From a virus (Duplodnaviria > Caudoviricetes), in IMG/VR virus record IMGVR_UViG_3300034096_000868, positions 128 to 64,127 of that record: DNA of 64,000 nt; one strand, given 5' to 3'. Shown piece after piece: positions 2,274 to 62,629 of this stretch (the stretch's first letter is position 1; every line of letters starts with the position of its first letter). The notes beneath the pieces were generated by a model that did no database searches, was not told where the DNA came from, and was given only the letters and a program-made list of their open reading frames with translations. A program made the position numbers and the translations under genes.

Positions 2274-2307
2274 ATTTTTTACTATATTCGCACTAAGTTA
2301 TAGTATA

Positions 2308-4497: not shown

Positions 4498-4503
4498 AAA
4501 GTT

Positions 4504-11564: not shown

Positions 11565-12275
11565 TTAGTTTGTTGAGTAATTTGCATATCCACCTACTAA
11601 TATTTCAGTAACCGGGAATAATGTAGGTAAGTATGATGACACTCCCATTAATCCATTATCTTGAATATATAAGCTACACGTTTTATAAACAGAAGCATCT
11701 ATATACCTAACTGGTATTATTGTAGTGTAAACTGGTCTATAAGCAACTGGCAATACTACCAAAGGAATATCTAATGCATTTTTAGTTAAATCTAATCCAT
11801 TTAAGTTTATTTCCACATATCCGTCCCCTCTTTTTCTAATATAGAAATAAGACAGAGCTGATGCACCAGAACCTGCTATATAACCATTTATTATAGTTCC
11901 ATCAATTAATGGGTCGCTTGGAGTTGTGCCTCTAATTGTTTTCCAAGTTTCATTCGCAGGAAACGTATACAAATTTATCCATGATGGATGTCCTATTGGC
12001 CTCCATTGAATAGTATTTGTTATTGTATCAAAATTCATTTCAACTCCAACTCCATCAGTTCCGTTTGTTCCATTTACCCCCGCAACTCCAGGCAATCCTT
12101 GTGGCCCTCTAAGTACTGGACTAGTTATTGAACTATTATCTGTTAGCGTTATAGTTACGGTATTATTTACGTTCCATGTGATAGTTTTTACACCTATACA
12201 AGCGCATTCATCTGTTGGTATTGGCACTTCTACAGAAGAAACTATCCCTTTATTACAATCTGTTGGCATTAGCAA
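11565..12275 (-). CDS. tail fibre-like protein with a short collagen repeat
   Basis: GPQGLPGVAGVNGTNGTDG G-X-Y repeat and LPVAYRP fibre-tip motif. Confidence 0.65.
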   Translation of the reverse strand: MLMPTDCNKGIVSSVEVPIPTDECACIGVKTITWNVNNTVTITLTDNSSITSPVLRGPQGLPGVAGVNGTNGTDGVGVEMNFDTITNTIQWRPIGHPSWINLYTFPANETWKTIRGTTPSDPLIDGTIINGYIAGSGASALSYFYIRKRGDGYVEINLNGLDLTKNALDIPLVVLPVAYRPVYTTIIPVRYIDASVYKTCSLYIQDNGLMGVSSYLPTLFPVTEILVGGYANYSTN

Positions 12276-12466
12276 TTACAATTTTTGTTAATAAAACACT
12301 CTATATCACATTCTTGTGTACCACATCCTATAATCCAATCAGCTAACATAAGTTTCGCTAATTTTTCTTCAAGTTTTGCAGTAGGTTTACCTAGACATTT
12401 ATTGTCTTGAATATTGCAATAAGTATTACTTATGCAAGTTCTAATTTTATTACTAGTTACAACCAT
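12269..12466 (-). CDS. small Cys-rich structural protein
   Basis: 65 aa, overlaps both neighbouring genes. Confidence 0.5.
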   Translation of the reverse strand: MVVTSNKIRTCISNTYCNIQDNKCLGKPTAKLEEKLAKLMLADWIIGCGTQECDIECFINKNCNC

Positions 12467-13745
12467 TGCATCCTTTTAAGCAGTCAAACAATAAGTTTTC
12501 TATTACTTTTTTAAGACAAGATACATTATGTTGGCTAGTGATTAGTATTGCTTGGTAGTTCAATAGCATATTCAATACCTCTTGTGCATTATTTTTCTCA
12601 CAACTTTCACAATCTTCTTTCAATACTTCTATTGCTCTATTTTGTATGCAATTTTTTAATTGGCAGTGAAATAATACATCTTGCTCCATATAACCAATTC
12701 TACAAGCCAATGAAGTATATACAAAATATTCTATTTTTACTACTTGCGAAGTTATTACCTCTGGACTTGATGCAGTGCCATAGCCAATTTGATAACCATT
12801 GATTATTACGCTAGGTGTTAGTGCAGTAGGTATGAAATCTGTAATATCAAATACTAAGCCATCTGCTCTAGTAACCCTAATCAAAGTAGAGGTTATATCT
12901 GAATAATCATAGTTTGGTGTGCCATATCCACCAGTGTTTGTTAAAGAATAAACTCCACTTGTATCAGTAAACTCTATTGACTTGCAACCTAATTTTTCTA
13001 ATACTGAAAATTTTACTCGGTTGTTAGATAGGATAGATCCACCACAACAAGGTATTAATAATGGAGTAGATATACAAACTCCTTGATTACCTCTAATTGT
13101 GTTTATTCTATATTCTAGTGTATAAGTTTTATTTGGCTCAAATGTAACTAATCCAAAATTTATTGAATTTAAGTCTATATATGAAGTTCCTAATGCATTT
13201 GGTAAGTATGGGCTATTGAAAACTCCTACTAATGTAACGCCATCCCATAAAGCAAAGTCAATATTTTGAATATTTGCTATGCTAGACGGAGCAGTAACAC
13301 CATATCCATTTGGATTTGTAAGTGCATTATATTCTTTAGTCGTATCTTGGTATCTAAATATTTGAGTGTCGCAATCAAAATCTATATCTGCGGTTACAAT
13401 TAGACTTGGAGTACAAGCCACTCCTTTTGTACAAGCAGTTGATGTGAATACTTGTGTTGTAAGCACTCCTAATCCACCACTATTTATCTCAATTTCATCT
13501 ACTACTTCTTCTGTACAAACCGCCTTAATGTCAATAGTCCCTGGAGTTGGACTTGGTTCATTACCAAAAGTTATTGTTGGGAAAGGTACACTATTTAAAA
13601 CTACATTTAAGTCTGTAACTAGTGTTGGAGATGCTAAATCTATTGGTAGTGATGGTAAATTATACCATGTACCATTTATCTTCAACCTAGTGATAATTGT
13701 ATTTAAAGGACAAATGAAGTTTGTGCTATATTTATTATATGCCAA
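12453..13745 (-). CDS. virion structural protein (tail hub/fibre base candidate)
   Basis: first gene of the fibre operon; internal repeat DTTKEYNALTNPNGYG / DTSGVYSLTNTGGYG. Confidence 0.55.
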   Translation of the reverse strand: MAYNKYSTNFICPLNTIITRLKINGTWYNLPSLPIDLASPTLVTDLNVVLNSVPFPTITFGNEPSPTPGTIDIKAVCTEEVVDEIEINSGGLGVLTTQVFTSTACTKGVACTPSLIVTADIDFDCDTQIFRYQDTTKEYNALTNPNGYGVTAPSSIANIQNIDFALWDGVTLVGVFNSPYLPNALGTSYIDLNSINFGLVTFEPNKTYTLEYRINTIRGNQGVCISTPLLIPCCGGSILSNNRVKFSVLEKLGCKSIEFTDTSGVYSLTNTGGYGTPNYDYSDITSTLIRVTRADGLVFDITDFIPTALTPSVIINGYQIGYGTASSPEVITSQVVKIEYFVYTSLACRIGYMEQDVLFHCQLKNCIQNRAIEVLKEDCESCEKNNAQEVLNMLLNYQAILITSQHNVSCLKKVIENLLFDCLKGCNGCN

Positions 13746-13784
13746 TTTATGTAAATTTAATTACTCCACTTAACTTCCGATTGG

Positions 13785-13792
13785 CAAATATA
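13785..13792 (-). promoter_or_regulatory. -7 promoter element for the tail-fibre operon
   Basis: CAAATATA = TATATTTG on the minus strand, 40 bp upstream of the 13745 start. Confidence 0.55.
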
Positions 13793-13842
13793 ATATATTT
13801 TAAACAAAACAAAATTTATTTTTATTTAATAGTAAAAAATAA

Positions 13843-13873
13843 TTTGCAATAATAAAAAATAATGTTAGATTTG
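13843..13873 (+). promoter_or_regulatory. Bacteroidota-type promoter
   Basis: TTTG ... TAGATTTG. Confidence 0.65.
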
Positions 13874-13953
13874 CACGTCTAAAATAATAAATAATACTAG
13901 AAATAATACAGAAAAATTAACTCACTTTTTTAAATAAATAAATAAATCACAAA

Positions 13954-14316
13954 ATGGAAATCAAAGGTAAAATAATACTAATCGGAGCAACTGAAACACT
14001 TGGAAAAGACTTTAAAAAAAGAGAAGTAGTTATCGAAACTACCGAAGAACAATATCCTCAAAAATTAAAAGTAGAATTTATTAAGGATAAATGTAGCGCA
14101 CTTGATGGATATAAGGTAGGCGATAATGTAGTAATCGGAATCAACCTTAGAGGCAATGAATATAAAGGAAAGTTCTATGTGAGTATACAAGGTTGGAAAA
14201 TAAATAGAGTTGGTGCAAATACAACCACTAGTCAAAGTACTGCTAAGGTACAACCTAGTGCTAGTGCAAACACTACAAATGAGGACAATGACCCAAATAA
14301 TGACTTGCCTTTTTAG
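13954..14316 (+). CDS. DUF3127-family single-stranded DNA-binding protein
   Basis: MEIKGKI...FKKREVV...YPQ...G....GW pattern and an acidic C-terminal DLPF tail. Confidence 0.85.
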   Translation: MEIKGKIILIGATETLGKDFKKREVVIETTEEQYPQKLKVEFIKDKCSALDGYKVGDNVVIGINLRGNEYKGKFYVSIQGWKINRVGANTTTSQSTAKVQPSASANTTNEDNDPNNDLPF

Positions 14317-14333
14317 TTTTTTTCAAAAAAAAC

Positions 14334-14363
14334 TTGCATTTTAAATATTTATTTTTAACTTTG
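14334..14363 (+). promoter_or_regulatory. Bacteroidota-type promoter for the replication operon (upstream of array A)
   Basis: TTG ... TAACTTTG. Confidence 0.6.
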
Positions 14364-14462
14364 CAGTAAATCATGTACGAGATGAGAAAGTTTAACAATT
14401 TAACGCCTTTGTGTTTGAACGTAGCTCGTACCTACTAGTAAAACCAGAGGCTTTTTTATTTT

Positions 14463-15197
14463 ATGAAAGACCCAGCATTTTTATTTTATAGTTCAGACTT
14501 TTTAAGTGGAATTTCAGATTTAACTATGGAAGAGCGAGGTCAATTTATTACTTTGCTTTGCTTACAACATCAAAAAGGATTTTTAAATGAAAAAACCATT
14601 AGGTTATCTGTAGGTTCTGTTTCGGTTGATGTAATGAGTAAGTTTAAAAAAAATGATAACGGAGAATTTTATAATGAAAGATTAAAAATTGAAATTGAAA
14701 AAAGAAATAATTTTACTGAAAGTCGTAGAAACAATGGGCTTCTAGGTGGTAGACCTAAAGAAAATAAAAAACCTAAAGGTAAACCTAATAGTAAACCTAA
14801 AAATAACCATATGGATAACCATATGGGAAATGAAAATGAAAATGAAAATATAGATATAATTATAGATAAAAATAATAGTATTGCAAAAATTGAAAAAACT
14901 GAAATTGAATTACTTTTTGATGAATTTTTAAAAATGCGAGTTAAGATAAAAAAACCTGCTACTGAAAAAGCTATTCAATTACTAAAAAAGAAACTCAATG
15001 AATTATCTGGTGGAAACGAATATAAAGCTATAAAAATAATTGAGCAGTCAATAGTTGGTGGATGGCAGGATTTTTATGAATTAAAGCCAATACAAGGAAA
15101 AGAAGATAGCAAAACTGCTAAATTAGGAAATACTTATTATACACTTTTAAATGAAATAAAAAATGAATCAGGAGAAACTACAAGAGAAATTCAGTAA
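14463..15197 (+). CDS. phage replication initiator (DUF1376/YdaU-like N-terminus)
   Basis: MKDPAFLFYSSDFL...LTMEERGQFITLLC...NGLLGGRPK, a low-complexity linker, and a C-terminal IIEQSI..GWQ domain. Confidence 0.75.
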   Translation: MKDPAFLFYSSDFLSGISDLTMEERGQFITLLCLQHQKGFLNEKTIRLSVGSVSVDVMSKFKKNDNGEFYNERLKIEIEKRNNFTESRRNNGLLGGRPKENKKPKGKPNSKPKNNHMDNHMGNENENENIDIIIDKNNSIAKIEKTEIELLFDEFLKMRVKIKKPATEKAIQLLKKKLNELSGGNEYKAIKIIEQSIVGGWQDFYELKPIQGKEDSKTAKLGNTYYTLLNEIKNESGETTREIQ

Positions 15198-15906
15198 AGA
15201 GCAAATACTTGAGGTAATAACAAATAGCTATGCTTTTGTTGGCTATAAACAAGATGTAGATGATATTAGATTGTTGCTAGAATTAATGTTTGTTCATGCT
15301 AACAAATCATGGAAACGATATAATTTATCAGAGATAATTTACTTTATAAATCTAGGATTAAAAGGGATATTTGGTAATTTTGCAGGATTATCAATGGCTA
15401 CTTTTTGCCAATTTGAAACCAATTATCAAAAACATGAAAATAATTATTACCGAAAAGAATATTTAAGATTGAATCCATTGCCAGAGCTAGTAGCAGTACA
15501 ACAACATACAGAAAGTGGAAAAGATGAAATAGTTGCAGATTCTATTATAAGCCGATTAAGAAGTAAAAAAGCTACAAACGGGGATTATGTTGTATGGTTC
15601 TCATATCTTCAAGAAAAAGGATTAGTAAATGATAAATCATGGATAAAATTTGTTATAGATGAAGTTAATAAATCTGAACCAGCTAAAGAAAGATATAAAT
15701 CTGAATTATTAAAACGAAAAACAATCTGTATGAGTTTAGTTCAAGAACATTTAGTTTTAGAAATAAACAAAGAATTAGAAGCTATCGAAAAAGACAATCC
15801 AAAGTTTGCTGAAATAGAATATTGGGCTAAAGTATTGTTCTTTGAAAATACTTTTTGCACAGATGAAAATATTAATAAACTAGAAACTTTTTTAAAAAAT
15901 AAATAA
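15163..15906 (+). CDS. replication-associated protein (helicase loader-like by position)
   Basis: overlaps the initiator gene; no decisive motif. Confidence 0.45.
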   Translation: MNQEKLQEKFSKEQILEVITNSYAFVGYKQDVDDIRLLLELMFVHANKSWKRYNLSEIIYFINLGLKGIFGNFAGLSMATFCQFETNYQKHENNYYRKEYLRLNPLPELVAVQQHTESGKDEIVADSIISRLRSKKATNGDYVVWFSYLQEKGLVNDKSWIKFVIDEVNKSEPAKERYKSELLKRKTICMSLVQEHLVLEINKELEAIEKDNPKFAEIEYWAKVLFFENTFCTDENINKLETFLKNK

Positions 15907-15911
15907 ACTAA

Positions 15912-16088
15912 ATGGAAAAAGAACTTAAAGAACTTTTAAAACTCAAAGAAAACGTAGTGAGGTGGAATATGTGTGCTGAACTCGATGAAAGGCTAGGATT
16001 AGACCCAACAAAATCAAATGAAAGTGCATTGTTTTACGAAAATGAATTAAATAGTAAATTGAAAAAGATTGTTGAAGCTTATGGGTAA
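15912..16088 (+). CDS. 58-aa hypothetical protein whose stop codon forms the first TAAC of array A
   Basis: MEKELKELLKLKENVVRW...KKIVEAYG* read by hand; TAA at 16086-16088. Confidence 0.55.
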   Translation: MEKELKELLKLKENVVRWNMCAELDERLGLDPTKSNESALFYENELNSKLKKIVEAYG

Positions 16089-16159
16089 CGGTTTCGGGCT
16101 TGGCGAAGTTTGCGAAGCGTTGGCTTGTGCGGTCGGGCAAATTGCGCCAAACCCGTGTT
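16087..16159. repeat. attC-like hairpin A1
   Basis: AAC GGTTT CGGGcTTGGCG..TTTGC / GCAAA..CGCCAAaCCCG T GTT; outer arm GTTATAAGAAGTAGC pairs with GCTATTTCTTATAAC at 16468-16482. Confidence 0.85.
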
Positions 16160-16198
16160 ATAAGAAGTAGCGGTTTATTAACGATAAATTTAATTAAA

Positions 16199-16468
16199 AT
16201 GGAAATAGAAAAACAAATTGATGATTTAACCTTTGAAAGATGGAGGTTTACATTTATGTATGGAACAATATTCTTAGATGGATATTGCTTACTGCAAAAA
16301 GAAAGCAAAAGGCACAAAAATTTTAAAGTGCTGAAACAATACGATAGAATAATAGGAAGGAGTAATACAATAGTGGAAAGTGAAGTGCCTTTTACTGATG
16401 AATTAAAAGCAGAAGCATTAAATCAATTTGTTTCTACGATAAAAGTTCTTAAATGGAGCGAAAGGTAG
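16199..16468 (+). CDS. cassette A1 hypothetical protein
   Basis: ATG 16199 after an A-rich leader; the track start at 16100 lies inside the hairpin. Confidence 0.65.
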   Translation: MEIEKQIDDLTFERWRFTFMYGTIFLDGYCLLQKESKRHKNFKVLKQYDRIIGRSNTIVESEVPFTDELKAEALNQFVSTIKVLKWSER

Positions 16469-16479
16469 CTATTTCTTAT

Positions 16480-16604
16480 AACGGTAAAATAATAAAAGCA
16501 GTAGCGATATGAAAGAACAAATTGAAAATATATTGATAAAGGTTGATGAAGGCACGATGCCTGTTCAACAAGCACTAAGCGAGCTATTGCTTTTATTTAG
16601 TGTT
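16480..16604. repeat. attC-like hairpin A2
   Basis: AATAAAAGCAGTAGC / GCTATTGCTTTTATT stem; arm GTTAGCGGTTCGTTGCC vs GGCAATGACCGCTAAC (16746-16761). Confidence 0.8.
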
Positions 16605-16760
16605 AGCGGTTCGTTGCCATCTATTGACCCATTAGATGACGAGAATAGCGAAATACATAAAATAGGTAGAGAAATAGCTGAAATGTCCGATGAAGAGTTT
16701 GATAATAATTGTAAAGCAATAACAGATATGCTGTCAAGGTCGAAAGGCAATGACCGCTAA
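16509..16760 (+). CDS. cassette A2 hypothetical protein (starts in the hairpin loop)
   Basis: reads through GTTAGCGGT (VSG); stop TAA is part of the terminal TAAC. Confidence 0.6.
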   Translation: MKEQIENILIKVDEGTMPVQQALSELLLLFSVSGSLPSIDPLDDENSEIHKIGREIAEMSDEEFDNNCKAITDMLSRSKGNDR

Positions 16761-16882
16761 CGGTCAAGTGTTGCCGAAGTGGGGGATTGTTAGTACAAAA
16801 GCCCATTAAAAGCACTACTGCCGAACACAGTACAAATGTTCATTAAATGCACGTTTGCCCCCCATTTTGGCAACACTATGTT
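16759..16882. repeat. attC-like hairpin A3
   Basis: AGTGTTGCCGAAGTGGGGG / CCCCCATTTTGGCAACACT; arm GTTGGTGGTTAGTGCC vs GGCATTACCACCAAC. Confidence 0.85.
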
Positions 16883-16922
16883 GGTGGTTAGTGCCTTTGT
16901 TAAACTGATTAAATAGAAAAAA

Positions 16923-17399
16923 ATGTCAAATAGAAATTTCAGAGGTCGGGTATTTCACTACTCAAATGATTGTGGCTGGGTTTATGGCGACTTTCATAAA
17001 ATGTATGATGGTAGTTTATACCATTATATAACTACATTACCTGACTTAGACAAAGACTGGCAAACTTCATATTATAATGTAGTTGCTGATACTATTACCC
17101 AAAGTACAGGATTAAAAGACAAAGATGGTAAAGAAATATTTGAAGGTGATATTGTTAAACATAAATTTCGTAGAATATGGCAAACTAAAGAACATATTTC
17201 AACAGTTGTTTGGTGTCAAGAATATTGCTGTTATTACTTGTTTGACGGTATTTGTAACCATAGAATGAGAGATGATATGGTTTATGAAATAATTGGTAAT
17301 TTCTTTGATAATAAGGATTTGGTAAAGGGCTATCCTCCTTGTCCAAAAGTAGAGCCATCAATAACAAATAAAAACTCATCCGATGACTTGCCATTTTAG
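16923..17399 (+). CDS. cassette A3: YopX-family protein
   Basis: FRG...WVYG...QSTGLKDKDGKEIFEGDIV...YEIIGN signature. Confidence 0.85.
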   Translation: MSNRNFRGRVFHYSNDCGWVYGDFHKMYDGSLYHYITTLPDLDKDWQTSYYNVVADTITQSTGLKDKDGKEIFEGDIVKHKFRRIWQTKEHISTVVWCQEYCCYYLFDGICNHRMRDDMVYEIIGNFFDNKDLVKGYPPCPKVEPSITNKNSSDDLPF

Positions 17400-17421
17400 G
17401 GTGTCTCGTGGCATTACCACC

Positions 17422-17547
17422 AACGTTAAACGGCTTTGTGACTGTGGTGGCAATAGAATTACTACTGTTCGTTACAGCACAAATGCCAAATAGGATTACC
17501 AAAGCTGAATATCAGCACATCAGCCACCATAGCACAAAACCGATGTT
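17422..17547. repeat. attC-like hairpin A4
   Basis: CGGCTTTGTGACTGTGGTGGC / GCCACCATAGCACAAAACCG; arm GTTGGTGGCAGGTTT vs AAACTTGCCACCAAC. Confidence 0.85.
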
Positions 17548-17586
17548 GGTGGCAGGTTTTTTTCTCGGTTTACAAATTTTAAAATT

Positions 17587-18072
17587 ATGCAAGTAATAGA
17601 AGAAATAGTAAAGATTTATCAAGCCAAAGACGGCACAAAATTCAAAGACAAAGGCGAATGTCAAACCTACGAAAAAGGTATTCCGTATGGTAATTATTAT
17701 GCTAAACTTTCAAACCTTAAAACTTTTGAAGTTACTGAAAACCATTTAAAACTAATAAAAAGAAATGTTATTGAATGGGTTTTTCATAGAGACGATTATA
17801 ATGCTGGTCATTTTTACCAAGATACAAAACGACCTTATGGAAATTCTGATTGGGTTGGTGATATTGCTGAAATTTTAGGAATTGAACCCGATTGCTCAAA
17901 TCCAAATGACGAAGACGAAAAATGGTTTTCTGAAAGTTTAGAGTACTTTTTAGTTTGTCATCATATTGATATGAGAATTGTAATGGAAATACTTTGTCAA
18001 AATTTGTCAATTCACAAAGGTAAATATGAAAGAGAAAGCGTTTATTCTTCGGACTGGGTGGCGGTCGCTTAA
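17587..18072 (+). CDS. cassette A4 hypothetical protein
   Basis: 161 aa; YQAKDGTKF..K.EC..YE N-terminus and KRPYGNSD motif. Confidence 0.7.
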   Translation: MQVIEEIVKIYQAKDGTKFKDKGECQTYEKGIPYGNYYAKLSNLKTFEVTENHLKLIKRNVIEWVFHRDDYNAGHFYQDTKRPYGNSDWVGDIAEILGIEPDCSNPNDEDEKWFSESLEYFLVCHHIDMRIVMEILCQNLSIHKGKYERESVYSSDWVAVA

Positions 18073-18082
18073 ACTTGCCACC

Positions 18083-18205
18083 AACGGTTCGCAGCTATAT
18101 TTAGTTGCGGATTTAGAATCACAAATTATCAAATTAGTAATAACTTAAATAGAAAGAAAAATGTCAAAGAAACCACAGAAACCGCAATTGAATATAGCTG
18201 TTGTT
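18083..18205. repeat. attC-like hairpin A5
   Basis: CAGCTATATTTAGTTGCGG / CCGCAATTGAATATAGCTG; arm GTTAGCGGTAGTTT vs AAATTACCGCTAAC. Confidence 0.85.
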
Positions 18206-18367
18206 AGCGGTAGTTTTTATTGGGTTCGTCCGTTCCATAAAGACGAGTTTGAACCTGCTAAATGTAAAGAACTATACGGAACAGATAAGCTATATTTTTT
18301 TTTCACAAATGGAAGTCGAATGGAAGTTGAACGTGCTTGGGAAGTAGAGCCGTTAAATTACCGCTAA
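18161..18367 (+). CDS. cassette A5 hypothetical protein
   Basis: 68 aa, identical to 59758..59964; starts in the hairpin loop and stops in TAAC. Confidence 0.7.
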   Translation: MSKKPQKPQLNIAVVSGSFYWVRPFHKDEFEPAKCKELYGTDKLYFFFTNGSRMEVERAWEVEPLNYR

Positions 18368-18412
18368 CGTTTTGCGTATAAAAAATCGTTTTAATGTTTT
18401 TTATACGCTGTT
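18366..18412. repeat. attC-like hairpin A6 (shortest, 47 bp)
   Basis: AAC GTTTT GCGTATAAAAAA / TTTTTTATACGC T GTT; arm GTTAGCAGTAGTAC vs GTATTACTGCTAAC (19491-19504). Confidence 0.85.
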
Positions 18413-18507
18413 AGCAGTAGTACGGATTTAAACCGCAAATGCTCATTCGGAGAACTGAACCTTTTTATTTTCTTTTTTGAGCGAGGACAAAATATTAAAA
18501 TAAAATT

Positions 18508-19491
18508 ATGACAATAGATTTAAGATACGGAGATACAATAGAACAAATGAAATTGATACCTGATAAAAGTATTGACTTTATTTGCTGTGATTTACCTTAT
18601 GGGACAACCGCTTGTATTTGGGATATAATTATACCATTTGATAAACTTTGGAGGGAATATAAAAGGATAATCAAAGATAAAGGAGTAATTGTATTGTTTG
18701 GTAGCGAACCATTTTCATCATTATTAAGAACATCTAATTTAGAGTGGTATAAATATGATTGGATTTGGGAAAAGAATAACGCAGGGAATTTTCAATTAGT
18801 AAATTATCAACCATTAAAAATACACGAAACCATATCAGTTTTTTATAATGAAACACCTAATATGGAATTTGCTAATATTATGGTTGAAAATATGAAAAGA
18901 CTAAACTTAAAGCAAATTGATATTTCAAAATTAGAACTTTCAAGAACAGGTGGAATGACAGGTTGGGTTACAAATAAAATGAACGGTTCTCAATTACCAA
19001 CAGAACAACAATGGAGTAAAATATGTGATTTGTTTGGTATTGAAAATAAATATGACGAAATACTTTTAACTGTAAAAAAGATTACATATAACCTTGAACT
19101 TGATGATACCAAATTAGTATTATCAAATAAAGGGAAAGCTGGAACATTAGGACATCTATCAAGTGAAAGTAAAAGAGAAACATACATACAAGATAAAACA
19201 GGTTATCCAAAAAGTATATTGAAATACAATAGAGAGAATGGATTACATCCAACTCAAAAACCTATACCATTGATGGAATTTTTAATAAAGACATATTCCA
19301 ATGAAGGTGAAACTGTATTAGATAATACGATGGGTAGTTGTTCAACAGGAATTGGATGTATAAATTTGAACCGAAACTTTATTGGGATAGATAATACAAA
19401 AAAGTATTTTAATATTTCTTTAAAGAGGGTGGAAGAAAAAAGAAAAGAAAAAGATTTTAACGTAGTAACTTCATTCGGAGATGGAATGTAG
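18508..19491 (+). CDS. cassette A6: beta-class N6-adenine/N4-cytosine DNA methyltransferase with an inserted HTH-like segment
   Basis: DLPYG (motif IV), HPTQKP, VLDNTMGSCSTG (motif I). Confidence 0.9.
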   Translation: MTIDLRYGDTIEQMKLIPDKSIDFICCDLPYGTTACIWDIIIPFDKLWREYKRIIKDKGVIVLFGSEPFSSLLRTSNLEWYKYDWIWEKNNAGNFQLVNYQPLKIHETISVFYNETPNMEFANIMVENMKRLNLKQIDISKLELSRTGGMTGWVTNKMNGSQLPTEQQWSKICDLFGIENKYDEILLTVKKITYNLELDDTKLVLSNKGKAGTLGHLSSESKRETYIQDKTGYPKSILKYNRENGLHPTQKPIPLMEFLIKTYSNEGETVLDNTMGSCSTGIGCINLNRNFIGIDNTKKYFNISLKRVEEKRKEKDFNVVTSFGDGM

Positions 19492-19532
19492 TATTACTGC
19501 TAACTTCTTTATTTACGCAACAAAAACACAAG

Positions 19533-19775
19533 ATGCAATATTTACGTGACATACAAGATGAGGTTTTTATAATTGTGGACTTTGGAGTTAAGTTTACAAA
19601 TCTACTAATTACTGATATTGGATTACTAAATTCAGAAACTGGCAAAATTCAAAAGAGATGCTACAATGCGGGTAGTTATGGATATTATATTAACGGAAAA
19701 TTCAAGTCAGAAAGTAAACTACCTAAATATCCATTTACTAAAATTATTCATATAAAAGATAAATTACCTTTTTAA
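19533..19775 (+). CDS. hypothetical protein
   Basis: 80 aa, first gene after array A; ends in KLPF. Confidence 0.55.
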   Translation: MQYLRDIQDEVFIIVDFGVKFTNLLITDIGLLNSETGKIQKRCYNAGSYGYYINGKFKSESKLPKYPFTKIIHIKDKLPF

Positions 19776-19782
19776 AAATAAA

Positions 19783-19812
19783 TTTGCAATTCGCTATTTT
19801 TTTATATATTTG
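19783..19812 (+). promoter_or_regulatory. Bacteroidota-type promoter
   Basis: TTTG ... TATATTTG. Confidence 0.55.
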
Positions 19813-19856
19813 CATCTCTGTTTGTTATTTAGATCCATTATTATTATTATTTGAAG

Positions 19857-19882
19857 AACTCCTATTTTATAGGAGTTTTTTT
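19857..19882 (+). terminator. intrinsic terminator
   Basis: AACTCCTAT-TTT-ATAGGAGTT plus T tract. Confidence 0.75.
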
Positions 19883-19890
19883 ATTTTTAA

Positions 19891-19920
19891 TTTGCTTTTT
19901 TAAAATATTCATTATATTTG
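19891..19920 (+). promoter_or_regulatory. Bacteroidota-type promoter for the capsid operon
   Basis: TTTG (19891) ... TATATTTG (19913-19920). Confidence 0.65.
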
Positions 19921-19975
19921 CAATAGTAAAAGTTAGAGTTAGAGTATAGTTAAGTGGAATTTACAACTATATTAA

Positions 19976-20980
19976 ATGTCAGAAATAGATAATGAAGTTA
20001 AAGTAGAAGAAGTTAAACCTACCTTTAATCCAGATGATTTTACAACATCTGCAAATAAAAAAGTAGAAGCCGAGCCAAGTAAAGAAGAACCTAAAGTAGT
20101 AGACACTACAAAGCAAGATGCGCCAACAGTAGAAACTGATGATGAAGATGATACTTTTGAAGTGTTATTTGAAGATTTAGACCTACAAGCACAAGCAAAT
20201 CCAAACACAACAAAGAAAGATGTATTCGCATCTATTAAAGAACTTGACCCTGATATTGACGATGAAGATAAAGCCGTTGAAAGCTACAAGTCTTTAAAGG
20301 AAGCAAATAAAAAATTATCAATCATAGCTAAAGGTCGCTCATTAATAGACACAGACACTGATATTATCGAGTGGAACAAAATGTCTAAAATGTCTGACCA
20401 AGACAAAGCTAAAGCAAAACTATACTTCGAGTATAAAAACAAAGGATTTGACCACGAAAAAGCTATTCAAAGAGTTGAAAAAACTATTGAAGAACTTAAT
20501 GAGGTAAGTCCTGAAACAATAGAAGATTACGCTATTGAGTACAACTCATTGCTAAAAAGAAATATTGAAGCAAAAACTAAACATATTGAAGATTCTATTC
20601 TAGCTAACAACATTGACCTAGATGTAGAAGACGAAGTATTAAAAAATACAGAAACAGCCATTCTTGATACTAAAGAATTTCTAGGTATGAATTTACCTAA
20701 AGATGAAACGAAAAGAGCAAAAATCCTCAAAGATGCAGGAAAGTTTGCCAATTCAACAGAGTTTAAGAAAGCACTAAAAGACCCTCAAACACTTAGCAAA
20801 ATCGCCCTATTCCTCAAATATGAGGATAATTGGAAGAATAACATTAAGCAAAAAGGAGTTTCTAAAGTTGCTATGGTTGAAAAAATGGCTACTGCACCAG
20901 CAGTTACGCCGTCTGTTTCAAAACATATTACTGAAAAAGCAAAAGGGTTCAATCAATTTAACCCCGATGGATTCAAGTAG
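19976..20980 (+). CDS. putative scaffolding protein
   Basis: acidic, helical, directly upstream of the MCP, as in crAss-like gene order. Confidence 0.55.
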   Translation: MSEIDNEVKVEEVKPTFNPDDFTTSANKKVEAEPSKEEPKVVDTTKQDAPTVETDDEDDTFEVLFEDLDLQAQANPNTTKKDVFASIKELDPDIDDEDKAVESYKSLKEANKKLSIIAKGRSLIDTDTDIIEWNKMSKMSDQDKAKAKLYFEYKNKGFDHEKAIQRVEKTIEELNEVSPETIEDYAIEYNSLLKRNIEAKTKHIEDSILANNIDLDVEDEVLKNTETAILDTKEFLGMNLPKDETKRAKILKDAGKFANSTEFKKALKDPQTLSKIALFLKYEDNWKNNIKQKGVSKVAMVEKMATAPAVTPSVSKHITEKAKGFNQFNPDGFK

Positions 20981-21031
20981 TATTGTTTTACATGAGTGAA
21001 GCAAGTGGAATATTAAAAAATTAAAAATTAA

Positions 21032-22504
21032 ATGAAAATTTATACTGGCGGATTGCCAAACAAAAATCCCGTAGACGGTCAATGGTTAGGTGACGTATTG
21101 TTACTTTACCCACAAATCAAGAAACAATTAGTAAAAAAATATTGCGATGATAAAACATTATGTTTTCTTCGTGATTTAATTGGACTAGATGCATCAATAA
21201 ATGAAACTGAATTCCAAAACAGACTAAAGTCTGGACAAATGGGTCTTTCAGGAGATAATATCTCTTGGGCAGTTCAAACGAAAGTTAGACCAGCTTTGAC
21301 TATAACTACATTGCCTCCAATCGGTTCTTCAATAGCACTAAACAGTACATTCACTATTGCATTTGCAGAAGATTGGTTATCTCCAGGAATGGTTGTGACT
21401 ATCAATGATAGCGTGAATGGTGGACAAATCAACTTGTTGATTATGACTGCGGCTACTGGTGCGGGGCCTTATTCTTACACTGCAAAAGTTATTGCAACTG
21501 CTGCGGTAACAATCCCTGCTGGTATAGTAGGTATTGGAGATAGTTTACCATGGACTTGGGCTGCAACTAGTACTTGTACTGAAAGTTGCGTAAAAGCATC
21601 TGTAGTAGCACCTGATTGGTATAAAAACTATACTACACATATCTGTATATCAAGACAAGTATGTAAAACTGGTGTAATGAATAGTACTTGGATAGAGGGA
21701 GCTAATGGCTCAATGTGTTTCCACTCAACAGAAGATTTACAAGTATTTGACTTGTTCTTAGGAACTATGGAAGCTGCCGTATACTATGGTAGAACTAATA
21801 AAAACTCTGCTGGTGCATCTGTGATTACTGGCCCTGATGGAACATTGACTACTGGTGATGGTATCGAAGCTCAAATAGAAGGTGGTAACGTAACTAACTT
21901 CTCTGTGGCTACATATACCAACCCTACGAACTACGCTGCATTCTTAGACTTGATAGAAGTAACTATCGAAGAATGGGCAGCTGAAAGAAACATGGCTAGT
22001 ACAGAATTATTCGCTAGATGCGGCCCTGCTGCATTCTCTTTACTTCAAAAAGTATTAGAGAAAAAAGCATTTACTGCTGGTGGATGTTGTACTTTACATG
22101 ACTTTAAGTCTGGAGAAGCGTATGACTATGCATTAGGTATGAATATCTTGCAATACCATTTTGCAGGTAATATTCTTAACCTAGAAAAATGTATGCTTTT
22201 CGGAAATACATCATTCCAACACGTAAGAAGTGGTAGTGTAATACCTAATGAATCATACAAATTCTTGATACATCCAAAAACAACTTGCGATGGGAAACCA
22301 TTGTATGAAATTTATTTCAGAGAGGGTTGTGGTACATCAAGTGCATTTACTTACAAGTATGTTCCTGGAAAGATGGATCCTAAAGACCCAACTTCTCCAA
22401 AAGCGGCTAACTTGTATGATGGCTACACTGCTGCATACGATACTGAATTTGTTGTGATAGTAAACGAGCCTAGCTCAATGTTACTATTTAGACCAATAGC
22501 TTAG
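21032..22504 (+). CDS. major capsid protein
   Basis: 490 aa, follows the scaffold-like gene and is followed by a terminator; E....YG and TGDGI..QI pattern of HK97-fold crAss-like MCPs. Confidence 0.75.
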   Translation: MKIYTGGLPNKNPVDGQWLGDVLLLYPQIKKQLVKKYCDDKTLCFLRDLIGLDASINETEFQNRLKSGQMGLSGDNISWAVQTKVRPALTITTLPPIGSSIALNSTFTIAFAEDWLSPGMVVTINDSVNGGQINLLIMTAATGAGPYSYTAKVIATAAVTIPAGIVGIGDSLPWTWAATSTCTESCVKASVVAPDWYKNYTTHICISRQVCKTGVMNSTWIEGANGSMCFHSTEDLQVFDLFLGTMEAAVYYGRTNKNSAGASVITGPDGTLTTGDGIEAQIEGGNVTNFSVATYTNPTNYAAFLDLIEVTIEEWAAERNMASTELFARCGPAAFSLLQKVLEKKAFTAGGCCTLHDFKSGEAYDYALGMNILQYHFAGNILNLEKCMLFGNTSFQHVRSGSVIPNESYKFLIHPKTTCDGKPLYEIYFREGCGTSSAFTYKYVPGKMDPKDPTSPKAANLYDGYTAAYDTEFVVIVNEPSSMLLFRPIA

Positions 22505-22519
22505 TAATAACACTAATAG

Positions 22520-22548
22520 TAAGGGAGTTCCGTAAAACTCCCTTATTT
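22520..22548 (+). terminator. intrinsic terminator after the MCP gene
   Basis: TAAGGGAGTT...AACTCCCTTA stem. Confidence 0.7.
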
Positions 22549-22601
22549 ATATTTTACATTAGAAATAAATTTTATTAAATCAAAAAAAAGTAAACAAGTA
22601 A

Positions 22602-23336
22602 ATGAGTAAAATAGTAGAAATCCGTCCGAATCCAAATTTTAGCGGTAACATAGTAGGTTCTCTTAAGATTAGTGGAGATTTCAAAGACACTAAAGGGAAA
22701 GTAATTCTATCTACATTAGGTAGAGAATCTTTAAAGATAGATGGTAATGGGATGCTTTTACAACCCGACTTATATCCATTACACGCTGACATTATTAAGG
22801 CAGCAACAGAAAGTCCAACATTTAGTGCTATGTTATCTTATCCAAAAGAAGGACAAACGCTAAGTGCAAACCAAAGATTTTATTTGCATGACCAAGAACT
22901 ACATGAGCAAAAAGAACATGACGTACTTGTAGAATCTCACAGATTATCCGATGAAATTCTAAACATGGATGATGCAAGAGTTGTAAACTTTGCAAAGATA
23001 TTCGGTATCTATGGTAGTGCTAAGAAATGTAAGAATGAACTAGTTAAGTTTAGTTCAGACAAAGTAAAAGCAAAAGAAATTGCAGACTACTTCAATAATC
23101 CTGATAGGCTTATTTTAGAGGTTATCCATGCATCACTTGAAAAAGGTAACGCTAGCGAGAAAAAAGGTTTGTATGCTGAAAATGGGTACTATTCTTACAT
23201 GGGTAATGCTATTGGATATGGAATAGACAAAGTTGTATTGTGGTGCAAAGAAGAAAAAGATATTTATATACACTTGAAAGGAAACGTATATAAAGATGAG
23301 GTAATTTCAAGTAAAGTCGATAAGAAAAATAAATAA
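22602..23336 (+). CDS. hypothetical protein (post-MCP conserved gene)
   Basis: 244 aa; position matches the conserved gene after the MCP in crAss-like genomes. Confidence 0.55.
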   Translation: MSKIVEIRPNPNFSGNIVGSLKISGDFKDTKGKVILSTLGRESLKIDGNGMLLQPDLYPLHADIIKAATESPTFSAMLSYPKEGQTLSANQRFYLHDQELHEQKEHDVLVESHRLSDEILNMDDARVVNFAKIFGIYGSAKKCKNELVKFSSDKVKAKEIADYFNNPDRLILEVIHASLEKGNASEKKGLYAENGYYSYMGNAIGYGIDKVVLWCKEEKDIYIHLKGNVYKDEVISSKVDKKNK

Positions 23337-23342
23337 TTCTTT

Positions 23343-23969
23343 ATGACATTTGAACAAATGTTTAATTTATCAAACTCCCTTTTAGATAAAGTAGGTTCTC
23401 CTTACTTTACTGAATCGGAGTTTGATGATTTTTGTAATATAGCTTATAATGATTGGATTGAGCAAGAATATAATAAATTTGAAATCAACCACGAGCATTC
23501 AGTTAAGCTAGATAGATTACTAGTGCCTTATACTAAGATTGGCACAGAGATATTTCTTACTACAGATATTACTAATTTTAGGTATCTAGCTAGGATAAAT
23601 GGAGAGTTTAATGACACTTGTGATGGATTAGTCACTAGGAATATTAGACAAGCTAAAAACAACAATATTGATGTTTTGAAGCAAGACCCTTTTAATAGAC
23701 CAACAACAAAAGAGCCGTTATTCTTTATTACAGCAGGGCCAAAAATAGAAGTTTTACCAACTGCTAATAGAGTAAATATTGTTTACGTACGTGATCCACA
23801 GAAAATTAATTCAGATACCAACCCAACGGGAGTATTTGAACTGCCCGATTATCTTGCAGAAGAAATAGTTGAAATGGCAGTTAGGAAACAAGATGTAAAC
23901 ACAGAAAACTACAACCAAGCAAATGCAATTAACAACGAAATAGCACAAAGAAATGGAGTATTTGAGTAA
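23343..23969 (+). CDS. tail ring / head-tail connector protein
   Basis: MTFEQM...LDK...E.D.F.N.A N-terminus and Y.R.P....ELP....EIV..AV C-terminus. Confidence 0.6.
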   Translation: MTFEQMFNLSNSLLDKVGSPYFTESEFDDFCNIAYNDWIEQEYNKFEINHEHSVKLDRLLVPYTKIGTEIFLTTDITNFRYLARINGEFNDTCDGLVTRNIRQAKNNNIDVLKQDPFNRPTTKEPLFFITAGPKIEVLPTANRVNIVYVRDPQKINSDTNPTGVFELPDYLAEEIVEMAVRKQDVNTENYNQANAINNEIAQRNGVFE

Positions 23970-24216
23970 CCAAGAGGCATTTAATCAAATAAATGCAATG
24001 ACGGATGAAGAATTGATTGAGTTTATAGTTCAATCTGAATTAGATATACCACATGACGTTGTTGGTGGTAAGCTAATAAATAGAGAAATGATTATTCATA
24101 ATCTAACGGGGATTAATCCTAATCCTAATGTTAGAATAACTTATACATGGAAAGGTGAAAAAACCGAACAAAAAATCACAGGAACAACCAGTGGATGTAA
24201 AACCTGCGGTAGTTAA
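23953..24216 (+). CDS. hypothetical protein
   Basis: 87 aa ending in GCKTCGS. Confidence 0.5.
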   Translation: MEYLSNQEAFNQINAMTDEELIEFIVQSELDIPHDVVGGKLINREMIIHNLTGINPNPNVRITYTWKGEKTEQKITGTTSGCKTCGS

Positions 24217-24287
24217 AAAAAAGTTAAAGGCAGTCAAAGTTTTAAATAACTTCACTAGAAGTTATGAAATTAAATTTATAGAAGAAG

Positions 24288-59679: not shown

Positions 59680-59970
59680 AACGGTTCGCAGCTATATTTA
59701 GTTGCGGATTTAGAATCACAAATTATCAAATTAGTAATAACTTAAATAGAAAGAAAAATGTCAAAGAAACCACAGAAACCGCAATTGAATATAGCTGTTG
59801 TTAGCGGTAGTTTTTATTGGGTTCGTCCGTTCCATAAAGACGAGTTTGAACCTGCTAAATGTAAAGAACTATACGGAACAGATAAGCTATATTTTTTTTT
59901 CACAAATGGAAGTCGAATGGAAGTTGAACGTGCTTGGGAAGTAGAGCCGTTAAATTACCGCTAACGTTTT
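59680..59970 (+). repeat. exact dispersed repeat, copy 2 (cassette B6 = A5, including its hairpin 59680-59802)
   Basis: identical by eye to 18083..18373. Confidence 0.95.
59758..59964 (+). CDS. cassette B6 hypothetical protein
   Basis: identical 68-aa translation to 18161..18367. Confidence 0.7.
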   Translation: MSKKPQKPQLNIAVVSGSFYWVRPFHKDEFEPAKCKELYGTDKLYFFFTNGSRMEVERAWEVEPLNYR

Positions 59971-61795: not shown

Positions 61796-62629
61796 ATGGA
61801 TTTTCTAAAGTATCAAAATAAATTTAGAATTGATTTAGATTTAAAATATTCTAATTCTTTGCAAACTAGAAATAATTATTTTTCTTGTGTTGTTAATTTT
61901 TTACAACATTTTAAAAATGAAAAAGAGCCTAAATCAATAAGTACTGATTCTATTAAATTATATTTGCTTTCTTTTAAAACTATAAATACTCGTAGAGCAA
62001 ACTTATGTGCAATAAAAGCATTTTACAAGCTAACTGTGAATATGCCTAATAAAATAGATAGAGTTCCTTTTCCTCAAAAAGAAAGAAGATTACCTATTAT
62101 TATAGATCAAATTGATGTACAGAAAATGTTTGATGTGTGTTCCAACTTGAAACACAAGTGTGTAATGGCAGTTCTCTATGGTACTGGAGTGAGAATATCC
62201 GAATTAATAGGCATTAAATTAAGTGATATTAGAAGAAATGAAAAGACTATTAGAATAATAGGCAAGGGGAATAAAGAAAGATTTGTGCCACTAAATGATA
62301 GCCTACTTCAATTAATAACAAATTATTGGAGAGAATATAAAACTAAAATATGGTTGTTTGAAAATGATTTATCACATACTCAATATAGCAAAAGAAGTGT
62401 TGGTTTGTTTTTAAAATCATTTAAAGAAAAAGCAAACATAAAAAGTCCAGTAAGTCCTCATAAATTCAGACACTCACACGCTACTGCATTATTAGAGCAA
62501 GGAACAGATTTAAGAATCATACAAAAGGAACTTGGACATAACTCAATAAAAACAACCCAATTATATACTCATGTATCTACAAATATTATAAGTAAAATAA
62601 ACTCACCATTAAACAATATAAACATATAA
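61796..62629 (+). CDS. tyrosine recombinase, integron-integrase-like
   Basis: catalytic R (YGTGVRISE), K (GKGNKER), HxxR (HKFRH), H (LGH), Y (TTQLYTHV); the YTHV....SPL ending resembles IntI. Confidence 0.92.
   Translation: MDFLKYQNKFRIDLDLKYSNSLQTRNNYFSCVVNFLQHFKNEKEPKSISTDSIKLYLLSFKTINTRRANLCAIKAFYKLTVNMPNKIDRVPFPQKERRLPIIIDQIDVQKMFDVCSNLKHKCVMAVLYGTGVRISELIGIKLSDIRRNEKTIRIIGKGNKERFVPLNDSLLQLITNYWREYKTKIWLFENDLSHTQYSKRSVGLFLKSFKEKANIKSPVSPHKFRHSHATALLEQGTDLRIIQKELGHNSIKTTQLYTHVSTNIISKINSPLNNINI

What the first reader, a model, noticed from the sequence alone, without database searches (positions are those of the whole stretch)
16087..19504. Second, integrase-less array in the replication operon, 37 kb from array B
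Seen: six cassettes with the same site grammar. The array starts at the TAA-C stop of a 58-aa gene (15912-16088) and ends at an AAC with no hairpin (19502). Inference: this is a second docking site served in trans by the 61796 recombinase. Both arrays lie co-directional and downstream of phage promoters (14334 and 54603), so the phage operon promoter may replace the integron Pc promoter.
Basis: partly seen in the sequence, partly recalled or inferred. Interest (0 to 1): 0.82.

Follow-up and report, generated by a model that had tools for sequence, protein, structure and literature searches.

The report
Second swappable-gene array in a phage
This lake-water phage carries a second row of six small swappable genes, each bounded by a folding DNA site, that sits far from the phage's only recombinase gene and is filled differently in related phages, so it behaves like an integron cassette array without its own enzyme.

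Summary
Positions 16087-19504 hold six cassettes. Each begins with an imperfect hairpin (AACG...TGTT, 47-126 nt) and ends at the next AAC. The array starts in the TAA-C stop of a 58-aa gene and ends at an AAC with no hairpin.

A covariance model built from such sites gives 15 strong hits in the 64 kb. All are on the + strand, 6 in this array and 9 in array B.

- A 98-99% identical relative carries a different last cassette, swapped exactly at AAC|.
- Four kinds of first cassette follow the same gene end in other relatives.
- Cassette A5 is identical (283/283 nt) to B6 in array B.
- Cassette A2 is identical (278/279 nt) in phages whose flanking replication gene is only 43% identical.
- No empty allele was found.

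The record's only tyrosine recombinase (61796) is Xer-like and lacks the IntI insertion. That it serves array A in trans is plausible but not shown, because relatives with no tyrosine recombinase hold arrays at the same dock, and host genomes encode homologues.

The site family occurs in 74 of 151 sampled Bacteroidota genomes. Phage CALINs are already published (Qi 2023). This scan has met the same system before on other DNA.

The parts
13844..13873 (+). Promoter-like site of the Bacteroidota type (TTTG, spacer, TAnnTTTG), upstream of the ssb-like gene and the replication genes
   Evidence: The consensus itself is recalled, not taken from a call.
14334..14363 (+). It matches only the relaxed pattern TTG...TAACTTTG.
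   Evidence: It was not matched by the strict pattern.
15912..16088 (+). 58-aa gene (g58). Its TAA stop overlaps the first AAC, so it forms the left border of the dock.
   Evidence: Homologues of 91-93% identity end in ..GGGAAATAAC| in relatives and are followed by other cassettes.
16087..16159 (+). Site A1. It heads cassette A1 (16090-16482, ORF 16199-16468, 89 aa, no family).
   Evidence: (57.8 bits)
16480..16604 (+). Site A2. It heads cassette A2 (16483-16761). The ORF 16509-16760 (83 aa) starts inside the hairpin loop.
   Evidence: The cassette is 278/279 nt identical in L007, L010 and L013.
16759..16882 (+). Site A3. It heads cassette A3 (16762-17424, ORF 16923-17399, YopX family).
   Evidence: Pfam PF09643, E = 7e-15.
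17422..17547 (+). Site A4. It heads cassette A4 (17425-18085, ORF 17587-18072, 161 aa, no family).
18083..18205 (+). Site A5. It heads cassette A5 (18086-18368, ORF 18161-18367, 68 aa).
   Evidence: It is identical (283/283 nt) to 59683-59965 in array B.
18366..18412 (+). Site A6 (short, 47 nt). It heads cassette A6 (18369-19504, ORF 18508-19491, N6/N4 DNA methyltransferase).
   Evidence: 48 bits. Pfam PF01555, E = 4.5e-25. In relative L004 it is replaced by a different methyltransferase cassette. It is about 82-90% identical in parts to Flavobacterium phage mymlan6-1.
19502..19521 (+). Terminal AAC with no hairpin, plus the flank TTCTTTATTTACGCAAC. I read it as an attI-like dock.
   Evidence: The same flank follows the array in L004 and L012. 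It is 17/20 identical to the array end about 100 nt from a recombinase gene in bacterial genome G132. That comparison was made post hoc.
19533..19775 (+). 80-aa gene downstream of the dock, conserved in relatives. It is not a cassette.
19853..19881 (+). The only terminator-like hairpin with a T run on the + strand between 13700 and 20100
59683..59965 (+). Cassette B6 in array B, the second copy of A5
61796..62629 (+). 277-aa tyrosine recombinase, the only one in the record and the candidate enzyme acting in trans

Best explanation
Array A is a working-type gene-cassette array of the integron-like system found in Bacteroidota and their phages.

The unit: each mobile unit runs from the base after one AAC to the next AAC. 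It holds a hairpin site, one promoterless ORF and a terminal arm that pairs with the outer arm of the unit's own hairpin. This is what a unit that circularises and recombines at AAC| would look like.

The dock: the array sits at an attI-like site made of the stop codon of g58 plus the flank TTCTTTATTTACGCAAC. It lies inside the phage replication operon and is presumably transcribed by read-through.

Exchange: units are inserted, lost and exchanged by site-specific recombination of the folded + strand. A tyrosine recombinase supplied in trans would catalyse this. The most likely enzyme is the phage's own 277-aa Xer-like protein, encoded 42 kb away next to array B. Homologous enzymes from the host or from co-infecting phages may also act.

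Shown: the sites, the unit borders, exchange at AAC| between genomes and between the two arrays, and the absence of a nearby recombinase.

Inferred: the folded-strand mechanism, which enzyme acts, and expression by read-through.
For: Sites and statistics. Covariation: 18 of 23 pairs have compensatory changes, and two G.T pairs are kept in 17/17 and 16/17 sequences.

Unit borders: each cassette's 3' end pairs better with the arm after its own hairpin than the upstream neighbour's end does, in 14 of 16 cassettes (Wilcoxon p = 5e-4). The + strand folds more stably in 14 of 16 sites.

Exchange at AAC|:
- L004 has 98-99% identical flanks and identical cassettes A1-A5, but A6 is replaced by a 713-bp cassette with an MT-A70-like gene. 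The junctions are GCTAAC| and AAC|TTCTTT.
- A5 equals B6 at 283/283 nt, with only AAC shared on the left and AAC plus 5 nt on the right.
- A2 is 278/279 nt identical in L007, L010 and L013, where the replication protein is 43% identical.
- Four different first cassettes follow the g58 end in 7 distinct records.
- Lake-water contigs support the same picture. One joins a g58 variant directly to A2, and another continues past 19504 into a different hairpin.

Enzyme:
- There is one PF00589 match in the record.
- It lies 52 nt from the hairpin-less AAC of array B.
- It is 36% identical to a recombinase beside a chromosomal array.
- Relative L126 has the identical enzyme and array B refilled with 5 other cassettes.

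Dock: the flank is conserved in L012 and is 17/20 identical to the G132 array end.

Expression.
Against: - No recombination was observed directly and no empty allele was found.
- Four relatives with arrays at this dock have no PF00589 match. Two of them have terminal repeats, and one is rated 100% complete. An enzyme encoded in the same genome is therefore not needed to keep or vary such an array.
- The recombinase lacks the insertion that IntI uses on folded attC.
- The flanks after the terminal AAC of arrays A and B are only loosely alike (my reading).
- The loose attI pattern is no commoner in 401 genomes (29 matches in 27 genomes) than its reversed control, about 50 matches by my count.
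- The + strand G.T bias would also suit hairpins in the mRNA.
- Only this one assembly places both arrays on a single molecule. Two relatives tile most of the circle but neither spans both arrays.
Confidence: 0.6

Rival explanations
1. It is the same kind of cassette array, but only recombinases from the host chromosome or from co-infecting phages service it. The 61796 enzyme acts only on array B or is the phage's lysogeny integrase.
For: - Relatives with arrays at this dock have no tyrosine recombinase (0 of 4 records, against 1 of 1 for the own record as positive control).
- R1-type sites occur in 74 of 151 sampled genomes of the phylum.
- Recombinase genes lie at array ends in bacterial genomes.
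- Published phage CALINs are in virulent phages with no integrase, and one Polaribacter phage site was recombined by a foreign IntI1 (Qi 2023; section 3.4 read).
Against: - The identical cassette in both arrays of this genome is most simply explained by one enzyme acting on both.
- Both arrays fit the same model.
- Bacterial cassettes carry their ORFs on the opposite strand relative to the site, so the phage pool is distinct.
Confidence: 0.25
2. It is a fossil array. The sites once served recombination, but present differences between phages come from homologous recombination between similar hairpins or flanks, for example by the phage's own recombination genes.
For: - Hairpin families are shared between unrelated cassettes. 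The B10 hairpin is 94.5% identical to one in L012, B3's is 86% identical to one in mymlan6-1, and A6's is 87% identical to one in P12002L, each with a different ORF.
- The phage has recombination-type early genes upstream of array B. I did not characterise them.
Against: In the three exchanges examined, the junctions share only 3-8 nt, which is too little for homologous exchange. The breakpoints fall at AAC| each time. Pairing of a cassette's own two ends has no role in homologous exchange.
Confidence: 0.1
3. The hairpins are RNA elements of the operon (processing, stability or attenuation signals) and are not recombination sites.
For: - The hairpins lie 5' of each ORF on the transcribed strand.
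- G.T pairs favour that strand.
- Some ORFs start inside the loops.
Against: - No Rfam family matches.
- No T run follows the hairpins; the only + strand terminator-like site is at 19853.
- In bacterial arrays the same sites lie on the strand opposite to the ORFs.
- RNA elements do not explain whole units swapped at AAC| or the pairing of ends that lie an ORF apart.
Confidence: 0.04

Closest known systems
CALINs (clusters of attC sites lacking an integron integrase) in phages, in particular the one in Polaribacter phage P12002L (Qi et al. 2023, PMC9892861; abstract, section 3.4 and passages read)
   Same: - A row of hairpin-bounded cassettes in a phage, with no integrase nearby.
- DNA methyltransferase cargo.
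- The A6 hairpin is 84-87% identical to a P12002L hairpin.
- The paper reports that one P12002L site was recombined by IntI1, from its bottom strand only.
   Different: - Here the same genome also has an array next to a recombinase.
- One cassette is shared by both arrays.
- The dock is conserved and variably filled in relatives.
- The ORFs are sense to the folding strand.
- The paper treats such sites as bacterial integron parts carried by phages, and in the parts I read it names no phage recombinase for them.
Classical integrons (IntI, attI, attC), including sedentary chromosomal integrons and the 'inverted integrase' group
   Same: - Single-ORF promoterless cassettes.
- Imperfect hairpin sites closed by AAC...GTT.
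- Crossover at that triplet.
- A hairpin-less insertion site at one end of the array.
- Sites of variable length.
   Different: - The recombinase lacks the IntI-specific insertion.
- The sites have a 4-nt one-sided loop and two conserved G.T pairs in place of the known extrahelical bases.
- ORFs are inverted relative to the site.
- Expression comes from a phage operon, not from Pc.
- This array has no adjacent enzyme.
The Bacteroidota integron-like system seen by this scan on other DNA (earlier notes). I found no paper on it.
   Same: - The same site model hits 74 of 151 sampled genomes, in clusters on one strand.
- Recombinases of 355-369 aa without the insertion lie at array ends.
- One of them is 36% identical to the phage enzyme.
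   Different: In the three bacterial arrays I read, the ORFs lie on the strand opposite to the site and run the same way as the recombinase gene. In the phage arrays the ORFs are on the site strand.
Xer recombination of folded single-stranded phage DNA at dif (CTX-type IMEX elements); recalled, not from a call
   Same: A small Xer-type enzyme without the IntI insertion acts on a folded single strand.
   Different: That system integrates whole phage genomes at the host dif site and does not build cassette arrays. The 61796 protein is below the curated cut-offs of XerA, XerC and XerD.

Membership tests
Integron (strict sense) | An integrase of the IntI type with the IntI-specific insertion in the catalytic domain | tested here: not met
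   TIGR02249 matches in two stretches and scores 156.9 bits against a cut-off of 265. NF011946 scores 96.4 against 435. Against VchIntIA (2a3v), query residues 208-274 align to chain residues 253-319, so about 45 residues are missing. In addition, no integrase lies within 42 kb of array A.
Integron (strict sense) | attC sites: imperfect inverted repeats closed by ..AAC / GTT.., of variable length, with structure conserved more than sequence | tested here: met
   Lengths are 47-126 nt in array A. 18 of 23 pairs have compensatory changes. The 7-nt boxes RYYYAAC and GTTRRRY are only partly obeyed (my reading).
Integron (strict sense) | Extrahelical bases and an unpaired central spacer that mark the recombining (bottom) strand | tested here: inconclusive
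   A 4-nt loop on the 5' side only, and two near-invariant G.T pairs (17/17 and 16/17), take that place. The + strand is more stable in 14 of 16 sites. Whether these features act like extrahelical bases is unknown.
Integron (strict sense) | Crossover at the conserved triplet, so that cassettes are exchanged as whole units | tested here: met
Integron (strict sense) | Cassette ORF followed by its attC and read away from attI and Pc | tested here: not met
   In all 6 cassettes the hairpin precedes the ORF on the coding strand, and the ORFs point towards the hairpin-less end. The bacterial arrays have the classical layout.
CALIN | Two or more attC sites close together with no integron integrase nearby, as called by IntegronFinder | not testable with these tools
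   The structural definition is met: 6 sites in 3.4 kb, with the nearest recombinase 42 kb away. I could not run IntegronFinder's own attC model.
Bacteroidota integron-like system (known to me only from this scan) | Sites fitting the hairpin model of about 125-140 nt, arrayed on one strand, with an insertion-less IntI/Xer-like recombinase at an array end | tested here: met
   All 6 array A sites fit R1. The model hits 74 of 151 genomes. Recombinases lie at array ends. Array A itself lacks the recombinase.
XerC/XerD/XerA chromosome-dimer resolvases | A score above the curated family cut-off | tested here: not met
   XerA scores 194.5 against 220, XerD 182.7 against 329.6 and XerC 177.6 against 335.15.
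Intrinsic terminators or known structured RNAs | A GC-rich stem followed by a T run, or a match to an Rfam family | tested here: not met
   The only + strand terminator-like site between 13700 and 20100 is at 19853. There are no Rfam matches.
Promoter-stem-loop cassettes of T4-type phages (recalled) | Each unit carries its own early promoter next to a stem-loop | tested here: not met
   No TAnnTTTG precedes any cassette ORF. The single match in the array (19361) lies inside the A6 ORF.

The most novel reading that the evidence does not exclude
Phages of Bacteroidota run their own version of an integron.
- One small Xer-like recombinase without the IntI insertion serves several attI-like docks in the same genome in trans.
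- The cassette pool is phage-specific and 'flipped', with ORFs on the folding strand. New genes therefore join the 3' end of an existing phage operon and are expressed by read-through instead of from an integron promoter.
- Array A would be the first dock shown to share a cassette with the enzyme-linked array.
- Its hairpin-less end would be a true attI of the family that also sits beside recombinase genes in bacterial chromosomes.
Probability: 0.45. Interest if true: 0.8.

Novelty: new variant of a known kind. Interest (0 to 1): 0.64.

Why it matters
Integron surveys report almost no integrons in Bacteroidetes (Néron 2022, passage read). Phage CALINs have been read as stray bacterial integron parts (Qi 2023).

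This array suggests a different picture. It sits at a dock that is conserved across diverged phages and is refilled unit by unit. It shares a cassette with a second array that lies beside a small recombinase. It carries phage-type cargo, including DNA methyltransferases that can protect phage DNA from restriction.

If the enzyme acts in trans, it would explain how integrase-less arrays in many phages stay dynamic. It would also give a simple, testable route by which phages trade anti-defence and other accessory genes.

Tried and rejected
Empty allele. Exact searches of viral contigs with the right flank and the left flank found only the L004 record. A 15-nt search with the relatives' g58 end gave 107 stretches. 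Most were chance hits, and every one of them that encodes g58 has a filled site. My first filter, was useless and I replaced it with tblastn.

Metagenome scans. The single protein found nothing. The alignment found 3 loci.

Function of cargo. PHROGs gave no family for 8 of 10 proteins. Pfam gave none for 7 of 10. The Atlas searches on A4 and A1 gave nothing usable.

Recombinase relatives in genome contigs. Only two distant hits appeared (26-30% identity) and neither had an array. L127 (71% identical enzyme) is cut 55 nt before the gene, so its array cannot be seen. In cultured flavobacterial phages Ingeline and Freya the integrase is 27-32% identical, and a ..YAAC with no hairpin lies about 55 nt before the gene, but the model found no sites there at E <= 0.01. 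P12002L (L002) also gave no model hit, and my grammar scan gave none either. Its hairpins are short.

attI pattern. The loose pattern matched 27 of 401 genomes (29 places). The reversed control matched about 50 places by my count, so the pattern as such is not enriched. Of the 20 loci examined, 8 share a longer common motif and 4 have a recombinase ORF about 100 nt away.

Model searches. L007 and L012 gave no rows, although two L007 sites were training sequences. I treat this as a gap in the tool. For those two I rely on the near-identical L010 and L013 and on my own scan.

Other negatives.
- Records G006 and G007 do not contain the array A region. G001 is cut at window 63382, so whether the array A relative has the recombinase cannot be told.
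- RNA read-through could not be tested. The RNA runs held small shares and the single read-laying run went to DNA runs.
- Parts of the stretch without cover are not evidence.
- The first energy-only scan was too noisy and I replaced it.

Full report
What is there. The window is almost the whole of a 64,127-base virus record with about 31% G+C.

On the + strand, after an ssb-like gene (13954-14316) and two replication-type genes (14463-15197 with a weak O-like/primosomal match, and 15163-15906), comes a 58-aa gene, g58. Its stop codon TAA (16086-16088) overlaps an AAC (16087-16089). From there to 19504 there are six units. Each starts with an imperfect hairpin that opens AACG and closes TGTT, then has one ORF, and ends at the next AAC. 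After the last AAC (19502-19504) there is no hairpin, only the flank TTCTTTATTTACGCAAC and an 80-aa gene.

Two of the six ORFs have a family: YopX (E = 7e-15) and an N6/N4 DNA methyltransferase (E = 4.5e-25). The other four have none in Pfam or PHROGs, and two Atlas searches added nothing.

Is it more than chance?
- A scan for AACG[GT]...TGTT[AG] with the triplets forced to pair gave 16 hits on the + strand. Fifteen lie in this array (6) or in array B (9). The - strand gave 2 hits.
- At a stricter energy there were 14 hits. Thirty dinucleotide shuffles gave 0 (26 shuffles), 1 (3 shuffles) or 2 (1 shuffle).
- An alignment of 17 sites of 122-126 nt (8 from the window, 9 from relatives) has a consensus of AACG:TGTT, a 4-nt loop on the 5' side only, and a stem of about 18 pairs. 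18 of 23 pairs show compensatory changes, and two G.T pairs are kept in 17/17 and 16/17 sequences.
- The covariance model built from this alignment (R1) finds 15 sites in the window at E <= 1.5e-7. All are on the + strand and all lie in the two arrays, including A1 and A6, which it was not trained on. It misses B1.
- No Rfam family matches.

Are the units mobile? Three kinds of evidence say yes.

(1) Ends. The last 16 nt plus AAC of each cassette pair with the arm that follows the GTT of that cassette's own hairpin, an ORF away. They do so better than the upstream neighbour's end in 14 of 16 cassettes of both arrays (mean score 8.5 against 1.0, Wilcoxon p = 5e-4). That is what a unit that closes into a circle at AAC would show.

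(2) Copies.
- Cassette A5 (18086-18368) is identical at 283/283 nt to 59683-59965 in array B, with different neighbours on both sides. L126, a relative with the identical recombinase, lacks this cassette in its array B.
- Cassette A2 is identical at 278 of 279 nt in L007, L010 and L013, phages whose neighbouring replication protein is only 43% identical.

(3) Alleles.
- The record behind L004 matches window 12092-18369 at 99.2% and 19501-26322 at 98.1%. Between those stretches it has 713 bp of other sequence: a hairpin plus an MT-A70-like methyltransferase gene in place of cassette A6. The junctions are GCTAAC| and AAC|TTCTTTATTTACGC.
- In the seven distinct records that encode g58, four different first cassettes follow ..TAAC|.
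- L008 and L014 lack g58, and there the array starts right after the replication gene.
- By the model, the dock holds 6 sites in the window and in L004, 4 in L010 and L013, 2 in L011 and 1 in L008 and L014.
- Contigs of four lake-water runs add further contexts. One joins a g58 variant straight to A2. One runs past 19504 into another hairpin. Two others follow A5 with yet other hairpins.

In the three exchanges I could read base by base, the sequences shared across the junction are 3-8 nt long. This fits site-specific recombination and not homologous recombination. The predicted empty allele was not found.

Which enzyme? The record has one tyrosine recombinase (one PF00589 match), the 277-aa protein at 61796-62629. 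It starts 52 nt after the hairpin-less AAC of array B.
- Its best matches are XerA, XerD and XerC, all below their cut-offs. It matches the integron-integrase models in two pieces that skip the IntI-specific insertion.
- Against the solved VchIntIA structure, about 45 residues are missing at that place. It is therefore not an IntI.
- It is 36% identical to a recombinase beside a chromosomal array in a bacterial genome.
- In L126 the identical enzyme sits beside an array B that holds five quite different cassettes, with breakpoints at the array's two ends.

That it also serves array A is a fair inference from the shared cassette and the shared site model. It is not shown. Four related records with arrays at the g58 dock have no PF00589 match, while the own record served as positive control. 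Two of the four have terminal repeats, and one is rated 100% complete. So arrays at this dock persist and vary without an enzyme of their own.

The wider family. R1 hits 74 of 151 genomes sampled from the phylum of a Bacteroidetes MAG at E <= 1e-4, often in clusters. I read four such clusters, in genomes G132, G019, G049 and G088.
- Sites lie 0.4-3 kb apart, all on one strand.
- In the three arrays where I mapped ORFs, the ORFs lie on the opposite strand, that is, the classical ORF-then-attC order.
- A recombinase of 355-369 aa without the IntI insertion lies at or near an array end.
- One of these genomes also has a canonical IntI elsewhere (429.7 bits).

In the phage arrays, by contrast, the ORFs are on the site strand and point towards the hairpin-less end (6 of 6 here). 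The same holds in mymlan6-1 and in the relatives.

Earlier notes of this scan describe the same system on many other genomes, and my searches agree with them independently. I found no paper on it in six searches. IntegronFinder 2.0 reports that only In0 had been found earlier in Bacteroidetes, and adds one complete integron in Salinibacter (passage). Smyshlyaev et al. note that the insertion is not fully conserved in their 'integron-like' recombinase subgroup (passage).

The dock. The first bacterial array end I looked at (G132) reads ..GCCAAC|TTGTTTATATGCGCAAC, about 100 nt from the recombinase stop. The end of array A is identical to it at 17 of 20 positions, and L012 has the same flank.

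This comparison was post hoc. The loose pattern is not enriched in 401 genomes against its reversed control (29 against about 50 matches). Of the 20 loci examined, however, 8 share a longer common motif and 4 have a recombinase ORF about 100 nt away. I therefore read the hairpin-less end as an attI-like site, with moderate confidence.

Expression. Promoter-like sites of the Bacteroidota type lie at 13844 (strict pattern) and at 14334 (relaxed pattern only). The next ones are at 19784 and 19892, after the array. No TAnnTTTG precedes any cassette ORF. The one match in the array (19361) is inside the methyltransferase ORF. The only + strand terminator-like site between 13700 and 20100 is at 19853-19881. 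I could not test it with RNA data.

What is known. Qi et al. 2023 (abstract, section 3.4 and passages read) found 17 CALINs in 10,705 phage genomes. One is in Polaribacter phage P12002L and has methyltransferase cassettes. They showed that one of its sites recombines with attI1 through IntI1, from the bottom strand only. The A6 hairpin is 84-87% identical to a P12002L hairpin. An integrase-less attC-type array in a phage is therefore a known kind.

The new points are these:
- a conserved, variably filled dock in the replication operon;
- a second array with a small insertion-less recombinase in the same genome;
- an identical cassette in both arrays;
- the inverted ORFs;
- the link to a phylum-wide family of sites.

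Caveats.
- The two arrays are joined only in this one assembly. L004's record covers window 63382 through the start to about 26 kb and beyond, and L126's record covers array B through the start to at least 5.2 kb. The gene order is thus supported, but neither record spans both arrays.
- E-values from R1 are rough.
- L007 and L012 gave no rows in the model searches.

Verdict. The reading as a second, enzyme-less cassette array at a real dock is supported. Service in trans by the 61796 enzyme is the best guess (about 0.6), with host or co-infecting enzymes as the main rival.

Noticed in passing
window 19783-19881: A strict promoter-like site (19783-19812) is followed about 40 nt later by the only terminator-like hairpin of the region (19853-19881). 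A second promoter-like site follows at 19891. This could be a very short transcript, or a terminator placed between two promoters.
   Followed up: no
window 62632-63898, compared with L007-L014: In 40-kb relatives the g58 array is followed directly by homologues of the genes that here follow the recombinase (98 aa, 222 aa with a DnaA C-terminal-like match, 87 aa; up to 100% identity). Relative to them, this phage has about 43 kb, including the structural genes, array B and the recombinase, lying between the two arrays.
   Followed up: partly
L001 (Flavobacterium phage vB_FspS_mymlan6-1, MN812227), locus 1-5000: A cultured phage has at least 10 R1-type sites on one strand, between four DNA methyltransferase genes and small ORFs. 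The array ends at ..CTTATAAC| with no hairpin.
   Followed up: partly
L124 (Polaribacter phage Freya_6) 1-1000 and L123 (Cellulophaga phage Ingeline_1) 7800-7960: Xer-like integrases of cultured flavobacterial phages are preceded, about 55 nt before the start codon, by ..YAAC with no hairpin. The Freya isolates differ in length upstream of the integrase (its position is 74, 535 or 1007).
   Followed up: partly
G019:C5:61111-62052: One sampled genome of the phylum encodes a full-length canonical integron integrase (TIGR02249, 429.7 bits against a cut-off of 265) in addition to insertion-less recombinases next to R1-type arrays.
   Followed up: no
window 51174-51229: Another first-reader note reports a hammerhead ribozyme here. 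The Rfam scan of the whole window at gathering thresholds returned no family. I did not look further.
   Followed up: partly
window 60925-61030: A unit in array B with no ORF of 70 aa or more. It is only 107 nt of sequence between two sites, and its two ends pair with each other.
   Followed up: no
window 58684-58686: Site B4 opens with TAC instead of AAC. The end of cassette B3 looks shortened by two bases there, so this junction may be dead.
   Followed up: partly
window 14363-14462: Between the 14334 promoter-like site and the first replication gene there is a hairpin (GTACGAG...CTCGTAC) followed by a T run, a possible leader or attenuator.
   Followed up: no
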